From Pirellulales bacterium (GTDB taxonomy: Bacteria > Planctomycetota > Planctomycetia > Pirellulales > PNKZ01), in the NCBI GenBank assembly GCA_036268995.1, contig DATATB010000137.1, forward strand, positions 55,164 through 119,163: a DNA stretch of 64,000 bases, in the 5' to 3' direction. Position 1 is the stretch's first letter. Each line of letters starts with the position of its first letter. The position numbers and the translations under genes were made by a program. Below, one piece after another: positions 41,382-46,653 of this stretch. The notes below the pieces were generated by a model. It saw nothing but the letters and a program-made list of their open reading frames with translations, ran no database searches and was not told where the DNA came from.

Positions 41382-42395
41382 ATGGACTCACGGCTGACCA
41401 CGCGCGTGCTCGAGTCGCCGGCAGACGAAGCCCAGTGGCGAGAGCCTTCCGCGGCCTCACTCCAGAATTCCTCCGGGCAACTCTCTTATTTTCTGGTCGC
41501 GTTGACCACGGTGGTCGTACCGATCCTCGGGCTGTTTGCCGCCGGAATCTCCTTCTGGCACCAAGGCATCAGCGCGGTCGATCTCTCGCTGGCGATCGTC
41601 ATGTATCTCGTGACCGTGCTCGGCGTCGAGCTGGGGTTTCATCGCTATCTCACACACCGATCGCTGAAAACCACGCCCGCGCTGCGTGCCCTGATGACCG
41701 TCTGTGGCTGCATGGCAGCGCATGGGCCGCCGATCTGGTGGGTAGCCATTCATCGCCGTCATCACAACTACAGCGACCACGACGGCGACCCTCATTCTCC
41801 CAACCTGCATGGCGAGACGCTGTGGCAGCAGCTCAAGGGCGGCTGGCACTCGCATGTGGCCTGGATGTTTCGCCCACGATACACGGCAGCCCACGCGGCC
41901 CACTTCGCCAAAGACCTGCTGGGCGATCGCACGCTCGTCGCGATCGATCGCTGGTACGCGTTCTGGGTCGTACTGGGCCTCGCCATTCCCGCTGGCCTGG
42001 GCGGATGGATCGGCGGAACCTGGGCGGCAGCCTGGACTGCCTTGCTCTGGGGCGGTCTGATGCGCATGTTTGTCGGGCAGCACGCGCTGTGGTGGGGCAT
42101 TGTCACCGTGTGCCATCGCTACGGCACCCGACCTTTCCAGAGCAACGACGATAGCAAGAACAACGTGCTGATCGCCGTGCTGTTTCTGGGCGACGGTTGG
42201 CACAACAACCATCATGCGTTTCCCAGTTCAGCACGCGTCGGATTGCGCTGGTGGGAGGCGGACTTCACCTGGTGGGTGATCCGCGGCCTGGAGCGCTGCG
42301 GCCTGGTGTGGGATGTGAAAGTTCCCTCGAGCAAGGCCATCGGCGAGAAGCTCGTCGGCGTTACACCACTGTCAGGTGTAAATACGCAAATGTAA
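41382..42395 (+). CDS. Acyl-CoA/acyl-lipid desaturase (membrane, Delta9-type family), paralog 1
   Basis: His boxes HRYLTH, HRRHHNYSDHDGDPHSP, HNNHHAF; ATG at 41382 with GGAG SD (alternative ATG at 41337); 3' end overlaps convergent KASIII gene by 35 nt. Confidence 0.85.
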   Translation: MDSRLTTRVLESPADEAQWREPSAASLQNSSGQLSYFLVALTTVVVPILGLFAAGISFWHQGISAVDLSLAIVMYLVTVLGVELGFHRYLTHRSLKTTPALRALMTVCGCMAAHGPPIWWVAIHRRHHNYSDHDGDPHSPNLHGETLWQQLKGGWHSHVAWMFRPRYTAAHAAHFAKDLLGDRTLVAIDRWYAFWVVLGLAIPAGLGGWIGGTWAAAWTALLWGGLMRMFVGQHALWWGIVTVCHRYGTRPFQSNDDSKNNVLIAVLFLGDGWHNNHHAFPSSARVGLRWWEADFTWWVIRGLERCGLVWDVKVPSSKAIGEKLVGVTPLSGVNTQM

Positions 42396-43497
42396 ACCGG
42401 GCGCTTTCCGGCACGACGCACATGATGCGTTGCCCGCGCTCGAGCCGGCCGGAAGTCAGCAATTCTTCGAGCATGATGAAGATCGAAGCCGCGCCGGTAT
42501 TCCCTTTGCGAGACAGGTTGGTAAACCACCGCTCGTCGGGAATGGCAAAGTCGCAGGCGGCCAGCATCTCCGCAATCGGCCGGCGAAACACTTCGCTCGA
42601 CAAATGCGGCAGCAGCCAATCCACCTGGTCCGCGTGCATGGCCCGGCGCTCGCGGATTTCGAGAAGCGATCGGCGGAATGCGACGGGGACGATGTTTTTC
42701 TCGAGCAGCCGGGTGTCCTGCGACAAGTTGAGATAGCCCTGCTCCAGCAATTCGGTGAGCTGCGTTTCGGCGCGCCAGCCGCGGAGCGAACCGTCGGTTT
42801 GCTTCACGGCTCCCGAATACATGCACGTTTCCAGTTCACCGGCAAAGGAAAGAATATCCAACCAATCGATCCTCAGGCTGGGGCCGCCGCTGCGCGGCTG
42901 ATCGGCCAGCAGCATGGCTCCCGCTCCGTCGGAAAGCATCCAGCGCAGGAACTCGTGCTCGAAGGCCAGAAACGGGTTCTCATCGACACGCGCCTCGATT
43001 TGCGACTGGAAGTGGCTGGCCCGCAGCGCGGTCGAAGCCAGCTCCGAACCCGTCACCACCGCTCGAGTCGTCGCGCCGTTGAGGATGCTGAGATAGGCAT
43101 ACTTCAAGGCCGTCATGCCCGAACAACAAACGCCGGCCGTGGAAACGATCTCGCATGGCGGCCAGCGCAGCAGCCCCTGCACCATGGCCGCATGATTGGG
43201 AATCCACTGATCCGGCGAGGAGGTACCGCAGCTCAGCAGTTGCACGGGCGCCGTGTTCGGATCGGCGGCCATCGCCTGCCGGATGGCTGCGACCGTCAGC
43301 TCGGCGTTGGTGTGCGTTTGCTCGCCGGTGTGCCGATCGATGGCGTAGTGACGCGACTGGATGCCGTTGCGCATCAGGACCACGTCTTTTAGCCGCGAAG
43401 GCCTGCCGCCGACCACGCCCAACACCGACTCGATTTCGTCGTTGCCGACGGGCGCGTTGGGCAGGCAGCATCCCAGCCCGGTGATGTATGCGGGCAT
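42361..43497 (-). CDS. FabH-like beta-ketoacyl-ACP synthase III family condensing enzyme
   Basis: 378 aa; thiolase-fold with Cys (AGVCCSGMTA), His and Asn (RKGNTGAASIFIMLEE) triad regions; ATG immediately follows PKS stop (TAGATG). Confidence 0.8.
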   Translation of the reverse strand: MPAYITGLGCCLPNAPVGNDEIESVLGVVGGRPSRLKDVVLMRNGIQSRHYAIDRHTGEQTHTNAELTVAAIRQAMAADPNTAPVQLLSCGTSSPDQWIPNHAAMVQGLLRWPPCEIVSTAGVCCSGMTALKYAYLSILNGATTRAVVTGSELASTALRASHFQSQIEARVDENPFLAFEHEFLRWMLSDGAGAMLLADQPRSGGPSLRIDWLDILSFAGELETCMYSGAVKQTDGSLRGWRAETQLTELLEQGYLNLSQDTRLLEKNIVPVAFRRSLLEIRERRAMHADQVDWLLPHLSSEVFRRPIAEMLAACDFAIPDERWFTNLSRKGNTGAASIFIMLEELLTSGRLERGQRIMCVVPESARFTFAYLHLTVV

Positions 43498-46400: not shown

Positions 46401-46653
46401 GATCGTAGAACCGGTCGACATCCCAACGATCGGCCGGAACTTCGCCAATCGCGGATCGGCCGGCGCGCAGCATCTGCCAATAGGCCTCCGGATCGCTCGC
46501 GCCGGGAAAGCGGCAGCCCAATCCAATGACGGCGACGGGCTCGGTCCGCGCGCGTTGCTCGGCATCAAGCTGCGCGTTCAGGCGCTTGAGCTCTTTCCAA
46601 GCATCTTGCATCAAGGCGCGATAATCGATCGGTTCGGACGTCGGCTTTAACAT
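43498..46653 (-). CDS. Type I polyketide synthase module, KS-DH-ACP (no AT, no KR)
   Basis: KS motifs [32 protein letters not shown]; DH motif [16 protein letters not shown]; [14 protein letters not shown]; ATG at 46653 is 4 nt after upstream PKS stop. Confidence 0.85.

What the first reader, a model, noticed from the sequence alone, without database searches (positions are those of the whole stretch)
42361..46653. AT-less, KR-less KS-DH-ACP module followed by a FabH-like enzyme; no TE/R release domain anywhere in the cluster
The second PKS has an intact KS active-site Cys and a DH HxxxGxxxxP motif, but no acyltransferase or ketoreductase. It must be served in trans by the AT/KR of the first module or by the SDR at 57599. 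The only candidate for chain release or a final condensation is the KASIII-like protein. OleA- or FabH-like enzymes can do Claisen condensations or acyl transfer. This is an unusual termination logic worth biochemical attention.
Basis: inference. Interest (0 to 1): 0.6.

Follow-up and report, generated by a model that had tools for sequence, protein, structure and literature searches.

The report
PKS offloaded by DarB-type resorcinol ketosynthase
The "FabH-like" gene after the truncated polyketide synthase belongs to the StlD/DarB ketosynthase family, which releases fatty-acyl chains by fusing two of them into a cyclohexanedione/resorcinol ring, so the missing thioesterase and ketoreductase are expected, although this PKS-coupled, aromatase-less Planctomycete version has not been characterised.

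Summary
Gene 43498-46653 (-) encodes KS-DH-ACP with no AT and no KR. It is followed directly by a 378-aa KASIII-like gene (42361-43497, -). No TE or reductase domain occurs in the window or in the 10 kb beyond its right end.

The interpretation needs sharpening. The KASIII-like protein is not a generic FabH/OleA relative. It passes the curated NCBIfam cut-off for the StlD/DarB family and matches the StlD crystal-structure sequence at E=1e-122, with the Cys-His-Asn triad intact. DarB enzymes join a beta-ketoacyl thioester to an alpha,beta-unsaturated acyl thioester by Michael addition plus Claisen condensation, freeing both chains as a carboxy-cyclohexanedione.

A KR-less last module therefore delivers the required beta-ketoacyl-ACP. 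Eight related metagenomic loci keep a KR-less terminal module directly upstream of darB. In those loci the AT, the DH and the upstream module all vary.

The rest of the cluster points to a glycosylated dialkyl-cyclohexanedione/resorcinol lipid from a Pirellulales bacterium:
- FAAL, a stand-alone ACP and alkyne/polyyne-type desaturases
- SDR, methyltransferase and glycosyltransferase
- a MacB/TolC-type exporter

Open points are the role of the DH, the source of the Michael acceptor, and the absence of the DarA aromatase. I rate this a new variant of a known kind, of moderate interest.

The parts
42361..43497 (-). StlD/DarB-family beta-ketosynthase (378 aa), the 'FabH-like' gene. Catalytic Cys124 (43126-43128), His298 (42604-42606), Asn333 (42499-42501).
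   Evidence: NCBIfam NF005293 scores 523.6 bits against a cut-off of 450. PDB StlD 5gk0: E=1.1e-122, 413 bits, full length. C124, H298 and N333 are invariant across 25 homologs. The only difference between PDB entries 5gk0 and 5gk2 is His to Ala at the position aligned to H298.
43498..46653 (-). PKS2 (1051 aa). Layout: N-terminal docking helix (46543-46653), KS (45418-46542), KS-AT linker remnant plus post-AT linker (44752-45417), DH (43891-44751), ACP (43528-43719). No AT and no KR.
   Evidence: Pfam, motifs, alignment showing AT excision. The protein is colinear with the solved KS3-DH3-ACP3 segment of 7zma, and its KS is closest to CurL.
46658..53122 (-). PKS1 (2154 aa): KS-AT(malonyl, GHSLG/HAFH)-DH-ER-KR(LDD)-ACP with a C-terminal docking tail. 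It holds the only AT in the window.
   Evidence: Pfam, translation, called gene of 2154 aa on the matching contig.
53124..53519 (-). Stand-alone ACP (131 aa, YGLDSL). Its stop overlaps the PKS1 start. It is the probable acceptor of the FAAL-activated fatty acid.
   Evidence: Translation. It is 49% identical to the ACP of the Streptomyces sp. Mg1 polyyne cassette. Called as a PP-binding gene.
53860..55644 (+). Fatty acyl-AMP ligase (FAAL).
   Evidence: Pfam AMP-binding plus DIP2-like. NCBIfam fatty-acid--AMP ligase model, 429 bits, below its 775-bit cut-off. 38-43% identical to FAALs of alkyne/polyyne-type cassettes.
55647..57606 (+). Two tandem membrane fatty-acid desaturases (55647-56606 and 56629-57606), of the JamB/polyyne type.
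   Evidence: Pfam FA_desaturase. 54.5% and 49.5% identical to the first and second desaturases of the FAAL-Des-Des-ACP-Des-hydrolase-rubredoxin cassette on Streptomyces sp. Mg1 pSMg1-1, in the same order.
41337..42395 (+). Third fatty-acid desaturase (352 aa), convergent on darB. The same position is occupied by a desaturase in L001, L087 and L096.
   Evidence: Pfam, called gene, synteny. About 40% identical to the Mg1 desaturases A and B.
57599..58453 (+). SDR (284 aa), most similar to the mycolate reductase (CmrA) model. Candidate trans-ketoreductase or ring-ketone reductase.
   Evidence: Pfam adh_short 147 bits. NCBIfam mycolate_SDR 228 bits, below the 380 cut-off.
58476..59042 (+). Membrane methyltransferase of the PEMT/ICMT family (188 aa).
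   Evidence: Pfam PEMT 41 bits. Weak isoprenylcysteine O-methyltransferase hit.
59039..60304 (+). GT1-family glycosyltransferase (EryCIII/MGT-like, 421 aa).
   Evidence: Pfam EryCIII-like_C and Glyco_transf_28, called gene.
60282..64000 (.). Export genes: a putative outer-membrane lipoprotein (60282-61589, -), an ABC ATPase (61787-62542, +) and a MacB/FtsX permease (62593 onward, running past the window end). A membrane-fusion protein follows just outside the window.
   Evidence: Lipobox and a helix-rich sequence with no Pfam hit. ABC_tran, FtsX and MacB_PCD. YknX_C membrane-fusion protein downstream.

Best explanation
This is a dialkylresorcinol/cyclohexanedione ('resorcinol-type') lipid cluster. 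A two-module type I PKS is off-loaded by a DarB/StlD-type ketosynthase instead of a thioesterase.

Proposed sequence of events:
1. The FAAL loads a fatty acid onto the stand-alone ACP.
2. JamB/polyyne-type desaturases modify the acyl chain there.
3. PKS1 adds one fully reduced C2 unit.
4. PKS2 receives the chain through a docking-domain pair. Its ACP is malonylated in trans, by PKS1's AT or by FabD.
5. PKS2 performs one last condensation. Having no KR, it stops at the 3-oxoacyl-ACP.
6. The DarB homolog uses that beta-ketoacyl thioester as the Michael donor. It adds it to an alpha,beta-unsaturated acyl thioester, either from primary fatty-acid synthesis or from the same ACP after reduction by the SDR and dehydration by the DH.
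7. DarB closes the ring by Claisen condensation. This detaches both chains from their carriers as a carboxy-cyclohexanedione.
8. The SDR, methyltransferase and glycosyltransferase tailor the product, and the MacB/TolC-type pump exports it.

Shown: domain content, family membership, catalytic residues, and conservation of synteny.
Inferred: substrates, order of steps, the acceptor, and the product.
For: - The KASIII-like protein is above the curated cut-off for the StlD/DarB family. It aligns end to end with StlD at E=1e-122, with an invariant Cys/His/Asn triad.
- In a neighbour-joining (NJ) tree it sits in a clade of PKS-linked DarBs nested among DarBs that have an adjacent DarA. That argues for conserved chemistry.
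- Eight other loci place a KR-less terminal module directly upstream of darB (L001, L003, L087, L088, L089, L090, L096, L097).
- Other parts vary in those loci. The AT is present in L090. The DH is intact in five of them and in the window, inactive or motif-less in L003 and L096, and deleted in L087. The upstream module ranges from absent, through KS-AT-ACP and KS-AT-DH-KR-ACP, to fully reducing.
- The N-terminal helix of about 35 aa in PKS2 is present in the two-module systems and absent from the single-module L090. This is consistent with serial PKS1-to-PKS2 hand-off.
- No TE or R domain occurs in the window or in the related loci.
- Literature: DarB/BrtD condense 3-oxoacyl and 2-enoyl thioesters to carboxy-CHDs (PMC6836626, PMC10088813). 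The listianol cluster couples PKSs to DarB/DarA, with a PKS-derived beta-ketoacyl donor supported by mutants and isotope labelling (PMC13192835). Bartoloside clusters likewise combine DarB, glycosyltransferases and a DevBCA-type exporter (PMC6836626).
Against: - No DarA/StlC aromatase homolog is in the 64-kb window (tblastn, best E=0.22). So the product may stop at the cyclohexanedione, or the chemistry may differ.
- The source of the Michael acceptor is unidentified.
- A beta-keto-delivering module has no obvious use for its intact DH.
- The protein scores below the narrower 'resorcinol_DarB' model cut-off (455 against 550).
- No biochemical data exist for any member of this PKS-coupled clade.
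Confidence: 0.68

Rival explanations
1. PKS2 is a normal reducing module whose AT and KR are supplied in trans, by PKS1 or by the SDR at 57599. It therefore makes a 2-enoyl-ACP. The FabH-like enzyme then performs a generic OleA/FabH-type head-to-head Claisen condensation or an acyl transfer to terminate the chain.
For: - The DH has all catalytic motifs.
- An SDR resembling mycolate reductase is in the cluster, and another SDR lies next to darB in L089.
- A DarB enzyme does need a 2-enoyl thioester as its second substrate, so part of the ACP2-bound chain could be processed this way.
Against: - The enzyme is not FabH- or OleA-like by score (FabH model 66.8 against 292; OleA structures about 22 bits).
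- The DH is inactivated in L003 (His to Tyr), lacks the motif in L096, and is deleted in L087, yet darB coupling persists.
- L090 and L097 show no KR or SDR in their called genes.
- DarB chemistry requires a 3-oxoacyl partner, which a KR-less module supplies directly.
Confidence: 0.15
2. The DarA-less, PKS-coupled DarB homolog has diverged in reactivity. It might form a pyrone or another head-to-head product from one or two ACP-bound chains. Alternatively an extra unsaturation in one substrate, introduced by the desaturases or the DH, could make the ring aromatise without an oxidase. In either case the product is not a classical carboxy-cyclohexanedione.
For: - DarA is absent from the window and from six of the eight related PKS-coupled loci within the DNA fetched.
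- Reviews note that DarA-less DarBs may have different products (PMC6836626, PMC10088813).
- A desaturase is conserved next to darB in four loci.
- A DH is retained without a KR even in L097, where no KR is present at all.
Against: - The clade is nested among DarA-linked DarBs at 50-60% identity, and two PKS-coupled members (L001, L097) still have DarA nearby.
- The catalytic triad and most of the StlD sequence are conserved.
- DarA could simply be encoded elsewhere in the genome.
Confidence: 0.12
3. Release is by hydrolysis. Either the DH-like domain acts as a thioester hydrolase or product-template domain, as in 6-MSAS and orsellinate-type synthases, or a TE is encoded outside the region examined. 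The KASIII-like enzyme would then act elsewhere, for example in priming.
For: - KS-AT-DH-ACP without a KR (L090) has the same domain order as iterative aromatic PKSs such as orsellinate synthases (from my own knowledge).
- There is a weak PT-domain hit (TIGR04532, 37 bits against a 168 cut-off).
Against: - The DH is dispensable in relatives and is closest to ordinary curacin-type dehydratases.
- No TE lies within 10 kb on either side here or in the related loci.
- darB starts immediately after the PKS2 stop, at the downstream end of the operon rather than at the loading end.
Confidence: 0.05

Closest known systems
StlD/StlC (Photorhabdus stilbene) and DarB/DarA/DarC (Pseudomonas, Chitinophaga dialkylresorcinols)
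   Same: The ketosynthase family is the same (E=1e-122 to the StlD structure, curated HMM passed), with the same catalytic triad. It gives thioesterase-free release of two acyl thioesters through Michael plus Claisen ring formation.
   Different: The classical systems take both substrates from type II FAS-like enzymes or discrete ACPs, and they carry the DarA aromatase next to DarB. Here the donor is delivered by a modular type I PKS, and no DarA lies within 64 kb.
Bartoloside cluster (BrtD/BrtC, Synechocystis salina)
   Same: A DarB homolog combined with glycosyltransferase(s) and a DevBCA/MacB-type glycolipid exporter, with long-chain fatty-acid-derived substrates, pointing to a glycosylated dialkylresorcinol lipid (PMC6836626).
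   Different: The brt cluster has no PKS, FAAL or ACP (its substrates come from primary FAS). It has DarA (BrtC) and CylC/CylK halogenation-alkylation enzymes. The window has a PKS, a FAAL/ACP/desaturase cassette, an SDR and a methyltransferase instead.
Listianol (lst) cluster of Methylobacterium sp. 4-46 (PMC13192835, 2026 preprint)
   Same: A hybrid of type I PKSs with a DarB-type ketosynthase. The PKS-derived beta-ketoacyl chain is proposed as the DarB donor, supported by lstB/lstC mutants and isotope labelling.
   Different: The lst cluster uses cinnamate starters, contains DarA (LstC) and includes TE domains. I did not compare sequences because the lst proteins were not available to the tools.
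Bacterial alkyne/polyyne cassettes (JamABC; cay, pgn, ccn; Streptomyces sp. Mg1 pSMg1-1)
   Same: FAAL, dedicated ACP and tandem membrane desaturases in the same gene order. Identity to the Mg1 cassette is 55% and 50% for the two desaturases and 49% for the ACP.
   Different: The window has no DesC-type third desaturase, no thioesterase and no rubredoxin. The ACP-bound chain is passed to a PKS rather than hydrolysed.
Trans-AT PKS KS-DH-ACP segments (e.g. the Brevibacillus bimodule core, PDB 7zma)
   Same: The same KS - linker stub - DH - ACP layout with no AT and no KR, colinear over about 985 residues.
   Different: The window's KS is closest to the cis-AT synthase CurL. The neighbouring module has its own AT, and no discrete AT gene is present. 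A close relative (L090) still has the AT, so this looks like a recent AT deletion in a cis-AT lineage rather than a trans-AT system.

Membership tests
StlD/DarB beta-ketosynthase family | Score above the curated family HMM cut-off (NCBIfam NF005293) | tested here: met
   523.6 bits against a 450 cut-off, covering 378/378 model positions.
StlD/DarB beta-ketosynthase family | Full-length similarity to the structurally characterised member, with a conserved Cys-His-Asn triad | tested here: met
   E=1.1e-122 to 5gk0 (StlD) over residues 3-378. C124, H298 and N333 are invariant in 25 homologs. H298 aligns with the His mutated in PDB 5gk2.
StlD/DarB beta-ketosynthase family | Adjacent DarA/StlC aromatase gene (the canonical darAB cassette) | tested here: not met
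   tblastn with two DarA homologs (L005, L001) finds nothing in the window (best E=0.22). DarA is present in relatives L001, L097 and L005 only. It could lie elsewhere in the genome.
StlD/DarB beta-ketosynthase family | Forms a carboxy-cyclohexanedione from 3-oxoacyl and 2-enoyl thioesters | not testable with these tools
   Needs enzyme assays or product isolation.
Pseudomonas-type DarB (NCBIfam NF053539, exception-level model) | Score above the 550-bit cut-off | tested here: not met
   455.1 bits. The protein is a family member but not that orthologous group.
FabH (KAS III) proper | Score above the TIGR00747 / PRK09352 cut-offs | tested here: not met
   66.8 bits against 292, and 91.5 against 249. 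The best FabH structure scores 59 bits.
OleA head-to-head condensing thiolase | Sequence similarity to OleA | tested here: not met
   Xanthomonas OleA structures (3row, 4kti and others) score 18-23 bits, E=3e-4 to 9e-3, over the C-terminal 100 aa only.
Trans-AT PKS system | All modules AT-less with one or more discrete AT genes in the cluster | tested here: not met
   PKS1 has an integrated AT (202 bits). No other Acyl_transf_1 hit occurs in any window ORF. The KS is closest to cis-AT CurL.
Canonical modular PKS termination (TE or terminal reductase) | A TE or R domain at the end of the last module, or a discrete TE in the cluster | tested here: not met
   No Thioesterase, Abhydrolase or NAD_binding_4 terminal domain in PKS1, PKS2 or any ORF scanned, and none within 10 kb past the window end.
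Bacterial polyyne cassette (FAAL, ACP, desaturase triad, thioesterase, rubredoxin; PMC8406139) | All five components present | tested here: not met
   The FAAL, the ACP and two orthologous desaturases are present, plus a third paralogous desaturase. There is no DesC-type desaturase, thioesterase or rubredoxin homolog. The cassette is therefore alkyne/polyyne-like, not a confirmed polyyne cassette.

The most novel reading that the evidence does not exclude
A clade of DarB ketosynthases, found so far in Pirellulales and in unassigned metagenome contigs, has become the dedicated off-loading enzyme of short modular PKS lines primed with desaturase-modified (possibly alkynyl) fatty acids. It works without the DarA aromatase. 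On this reading, either the product is a new class of cyclohexanedione glycolipid, or aromatisation is achieved non-oxidatively from an extra unsaturation. The KR-less DH would then have a non-canonical job, such as making the Michael acceptor on the same ACP together with the trans SDR, or acting on the ring.
Probability: 0.2. Interest if true: 0.6.

Novelty: new variant of a known kind. Interest (0 to 1): 0.42.

Why it matters
The finding turns an apparent puzzle (no AT, no KR, no TE) into a readable rule: a KR-less terminal module followed by darB means ring-forming release. That rule can be applied when annotating "resorcinol" clusters, which are routinely counted but not interpreted in Planctomycete genomes.

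It also gives a concrete, testable set of natural variants in which the upstream module differs in reduction level and the DH, AT and DarA come and go. These could show how DarB enzymes choose their two substrates and whether DarA is always needed.

The likely product, a glycosylated long-chain cyclohexanedione or resorcinol lipid with unsaturated or alkynyl tails, would be a new compound type for Planctomycetes.

Tried and rejected
- Tetronate-type (FkbH cassette), OleA/beta-lactone, pyrone-forming (CorB/MxnB-like), CerJ/DpsC-type and type III PKS roles for the KASIII-like enzyme. I rejected these once the StlD/DarB match appeared. No FkbH, Chal_sti_synt or HMGS domains were seen in the window.
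- A DarA search with NCBIfam returned no family for two bona fide DarA-position proteins, so I used tblastn with those sequences instead.
- The genome-contig scan returned mostly classical darAB loci at 61% identity or less. It did not return the source genome. The source was identified later through exact-protein look-ups.
- L009 (a Pirellula MAG) looks fragmented or chimeric. It has split FAAL pieces and a DH-ACP tail before darB. I used it only as weak support.
- A literature search for StlD mechanistic residues found nothing usable. The statement that Glu152 corresponds to a catalytic Glu of StlD is from memory only and is not used as evidence.
- The idea that PKS2 is close to a trans-AT KS arose from an inflated PDB score, which summed matches to two KS domains in 7zma. 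It was corrected by the alignment.
- Full polyyne-cassette membership was rejected.
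Full report
**1. What is in the sequence**

The minus strand between 53519 and 42361 carries four tightly packed genes.
- A stand-alone ACP (53124-53519) has the motif YGLDSL. Its stop codon overlaps the next gene's ATG.
- PKS1 (46658-53122, 2154 aa) has the order KS-AT-DH-ER-KR-ACP.
- PKS2 (43498-46653, 1051 aa) has the order KS-DH-ACP.
- A 378-aa KASIII-like gene (42361-43497) begins immediately after the PKS2 stop.

Gene calls on an identical public metagenome contig agree with this map. The long GTG and TTG ORFs listed mechanically for PKS1 and PKS2 are overcalls.

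The active-site motifs in PKS2 are all present.
- KS: DTACSSS, EAHGTGT, NIGH.
- DH: [21 protein letters not shown].
- ACP: GLDSL.

There is no AT or KR hit. The inter-domain stretches (about 220 aa and about 58 aa) are too short to hide either domain. An alignment with a relative that still has the AT (L090, KS-AT-DH-ACP) shows that the AT core has been cleanly removed. The KS-AT linker and the post-AT linker ([12 protein letters not shown]) remain.

**2. No TE or reductase**

I scanned every sizeable ORF in the window against Pfam. None has a thioesterase, alpha/beta-hydrolase or terminal reductase domain.

The matching contig extends past the right end of the window. The next 10 kb holds a MacB-type permease, a membrane-fusion protein, a histidine kinase and a FadL-like porin, and again no TE. 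On the left, the genes beyond the desaturase are unrelated: DUF1598, a hypothetical protein and a TPR-CHAT protein.

**3. Identity of the "FabH-like" enzyme**

The protein matches the crystal-structure sequence of Photorhabdus StlD over its whole length (E=1.1e-122, 413 bits). True FabH structures score 59 bits or less, and OleA structures about 22 bits.

It passes the curated cut-off of NCBIfam NF005293, "StlD/DarB family beta-ketosynthase" (523.6 against 450). It fails all the FabH models.

Cys124, His298 and Asn333 are invariant among 25 homologs. His298 aligns with the residue that differs (His to Ala) between PDB entries 5gk0 and 5gk2.

According to the literature held here, DarB, BrtD and StlD join a 3-oxoacyl thioester and a 2-enoyl thioester by Michael addition and Claisen condensation. 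The product is a carboxy-cyclohexanedione, which the DarA/StlC/BrtC aromatase then converts to a dialkylresorcinol (PMC6836626, PMC10088813). Both thioester bonds are consumed, so no thioesterase is needed.

**4. Why the module lacks a KR**

A last module without a KR ends at a 3-oxoacyl-ACP, which is the DarB donor substrate. Comparative evidence supports this reading.

The closest DarB homologs (60-67% identity) that lie on long contigs are preceded by PKS genes. In each case the terminal module is KR-less.

| Locus | Upstream module | Terminal module |
|---|---|---|
| L001, L096 | KS-AT-DH-KR-ACP | KS-DH-ACP |
| L003, L089 | fully reducing | KS-DH-ACP (DH catalytic His is Tyr in L003) |
| L087 | fully reducing | KS-ACP, DH deleted |
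| L097 | KS-AT-ACP | KS-DH-ACP |
| L090 | none | single KS-AT-DH-ACP |
| L088 | not seen (contig end) | KS-DH-ACP |

The beta-keto end is therefore constant. The AT, the DH and the reduction level of the preceding unit all vary.

In a neighbour-joining tree these PKS-linked DarBs form one clade, nested among DarBs that have an adjacent DarA. This argues against a radically different reaction.

PKS2 and its two-module relatives share an N-terminal helix of about 35 residues that the single-module L090 lacks. PKS1 ends in a typical acidic docking tail. Both features fit a serial hand-off from PKS1 to PKS2.

The only AT in the window is PKS1's malonyl-type AT (GHSLG, HAFH). ACP2 must therefore be loaded in trans by it or by FabD. 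This is an inference.

**5. The rest of the cluster**

The divergent operon encodes six genes.
- A FAAL.
- Two tandem membrane desaturases.
- An SDR most similar to the mycolate-reductase model, though below its cut-off.
- A PEMT/ICMT-type methyltransferase.
- A GT1 glycosyltransferase.

A lipoprotein with no Pfam hit follows (possibly an outer-membrane factor), then a MacB-type ABC pump.

A third desaturase converges on darB. The same arrangement occurs in L001, L087 and L096.

The FAAL - desaturase - desaturase order and the ACP resemble the canonical polyyne cassette annotated on Streptomyces sp. Mg1 plasmid pSMg1-1 (FAAL, Des, Des, ACP, Des, hydrolase, rubredoxin). Identities are 55% and 50% for the two desaturases and 49% for the ACP.

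The window has no homolog of that cassette's third desaturase, its hydrolase or its rubredoxin. I therefore call the cassette alkyne/polyyne-like only.

Polyyne cassettes normally end with a thioesterase (PMC9828172, PMC8406139). Here the chain appears to be handed to the PKS instead.

A glycosyltransferase plus a DevBCA/MacB-type exporter next to a DarB homolog is also the pattern of the bartoloside clusters (PMC6836626).

The organism is a Pirellulales bacterium. PKS2 is 100% identical to a protein annotated from such a MAG. The window also holds Planctomycete-typical DUF1598 and YTV-repeat proteins.

**6. What remains unexplained**

(a) No DarA homolog is in the window, and only L001, L097 and L005 among the relatives have one nearby. 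The product may remain a carboxy-cyclohexanedione, possibly with its carboxyl methylated by the ICMT-like enzyme (speculation). Alternatively DarA lies elsewhere, or aromatisation is achieved another way.

(b) The Michael acceptor is not identified. It could be a 2-enoyl-ACP from primary FAS, as proposed for the bartolosides. It could also be the same ACP2-bound chain after reduction by the SDR and dehydration by the DH.

(c) The DH keeps its catalytic residues in six of nine terminal modules, even where no KR exists (L097). It is inactive or absent in three. It is closest to ordinary curacin-type dehydratases. It is thus dispensable for the core chemistry but probably not always idle.

**7. 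Comparison with what is known, and novelty**

The release logic itself is established. Clusters combining DarB with type I PKSs have been noted in cyanobacteria (PMC6836626). One such system, listianol, has experimental support (PMC13192835).

Planctomycete genome papers list "resorcinol" clusters without analysing them (for example PMC13241502). In the literature I could search, I found no description of this particular arrangement: a FAAL/ACP/desaturase cassette, one reducing module, an AT-less and KR-less KS-DH-ACP module and darB, without darA.

I therefore rate it a new variant of a known kind. It is overstated in novelty, and the supposed need for a trans-KR is probably wrong.

**8. Verdict**

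- Best explanation: DarB-type ring-forming off-loading of a beta-ketoacyl-ACP. Confidence is about 0.68 for the core claim and much lower for the acceptor and the product.
- Interest is 0.42.

Noticed in passing
window 53124-53653: The mechanical 2331-aa GTG ORF of the first PKS hides a separate ACP gene (53124-53519, -) in another frame. The true PKS1 start is the ATG at 53122, overlapping the ACP stop.
   Followed up: yes
window 53860-57606 and 41337-42395: The FAAL, two tandem desaturases and a third desaturase resemble the alkyne/polyyne cassette (55% and 50% identity to the Streptomyces sp. Mg1 pSMg1-1 desaturases). They lack the cassette's thioesterase, rubredoxin and DesC-type enzyme. 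The PKS starter may be an alkynyl or otherwise unsaturated fatty acyl-ACP.
   Followed up: partly
L087:1-448 and L009:4392-5714: In two related loci the FAAL is fused to a fatty-acid desaturase domain (a 906-aa product in L087). This suggests the ligase and desaturase work as a physical unit on the ACP-bound chain.
   Followed up: no
window 60282-61589 (-): An ORF of about 435 aa has a lipobox (LVLGCAS) and a helix-rich sequence but no Pfam or NCBIfam hit. It sits between the glycosyltransferase and the MacB-type ABC genes. It may be a divergent TolC-like outer-membrane factor.
   Followed up: partly
window 58476-59042: A PEMT/ICMT-family membrane methyltransferase lies in the tailoring operon. 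ICMT-type enzymes methylate carboxylates, so it might esterify the carboxy-cyclohexanedione and block decarboxylation. This is pure speculation.
   Followed up: no
L001, L096, L097, L090 compared with the window: The module upstream of the KR-less module differs in reduction level between relatives: none, KS-AT-ACP, KS-AT-DH-KR-ACP, or fully reducing. DarA was seen only where the upstream module lacks an ER (L001, L097), although L096 also lacks an ER and shows no DarA. The sample is too small to call this a correlation.
   Followed up: partly
window 10273-12330 (+): A 685-aa protein consists of 17 YTV repeats (Pfam PF07639, 593 bits), a Planctomycete-typical repeat family. The ORF has an unusually low first-position GC (0.44) and a long antisense ORF over its whole length.
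   Followed up: no
window 34106-38554 (-): A 1482-aa TPR-repeat protein ends in a CHAT (caspase-like) protease domain. It lies just outside the biosynthetic cluster.
   Followed up: no
window 14183-17680 (-) and 28054-29901 (-): Two large ORFs (1165 aa and 615 aa) have coding-like GC3 but no Pfam hit.
   Followed up: no
L008 (Cyanomargarita calcarea MAG) 1701-11140: A cyanobacterial relative combines, in one locus, a KS-AT-ACP-TE PKS, a type III PKS, DarA and DarB. That puts two different resorcinol-forming enzyme types side by side.
   Followed up: no
L096:14513-17559: In one related locus darB is followed by an SCP2 lipid-carrier gene, the conserved desaturase and an RPE65-family (carotenoid-cleavage-type) oxygenase.
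   Followed up: no
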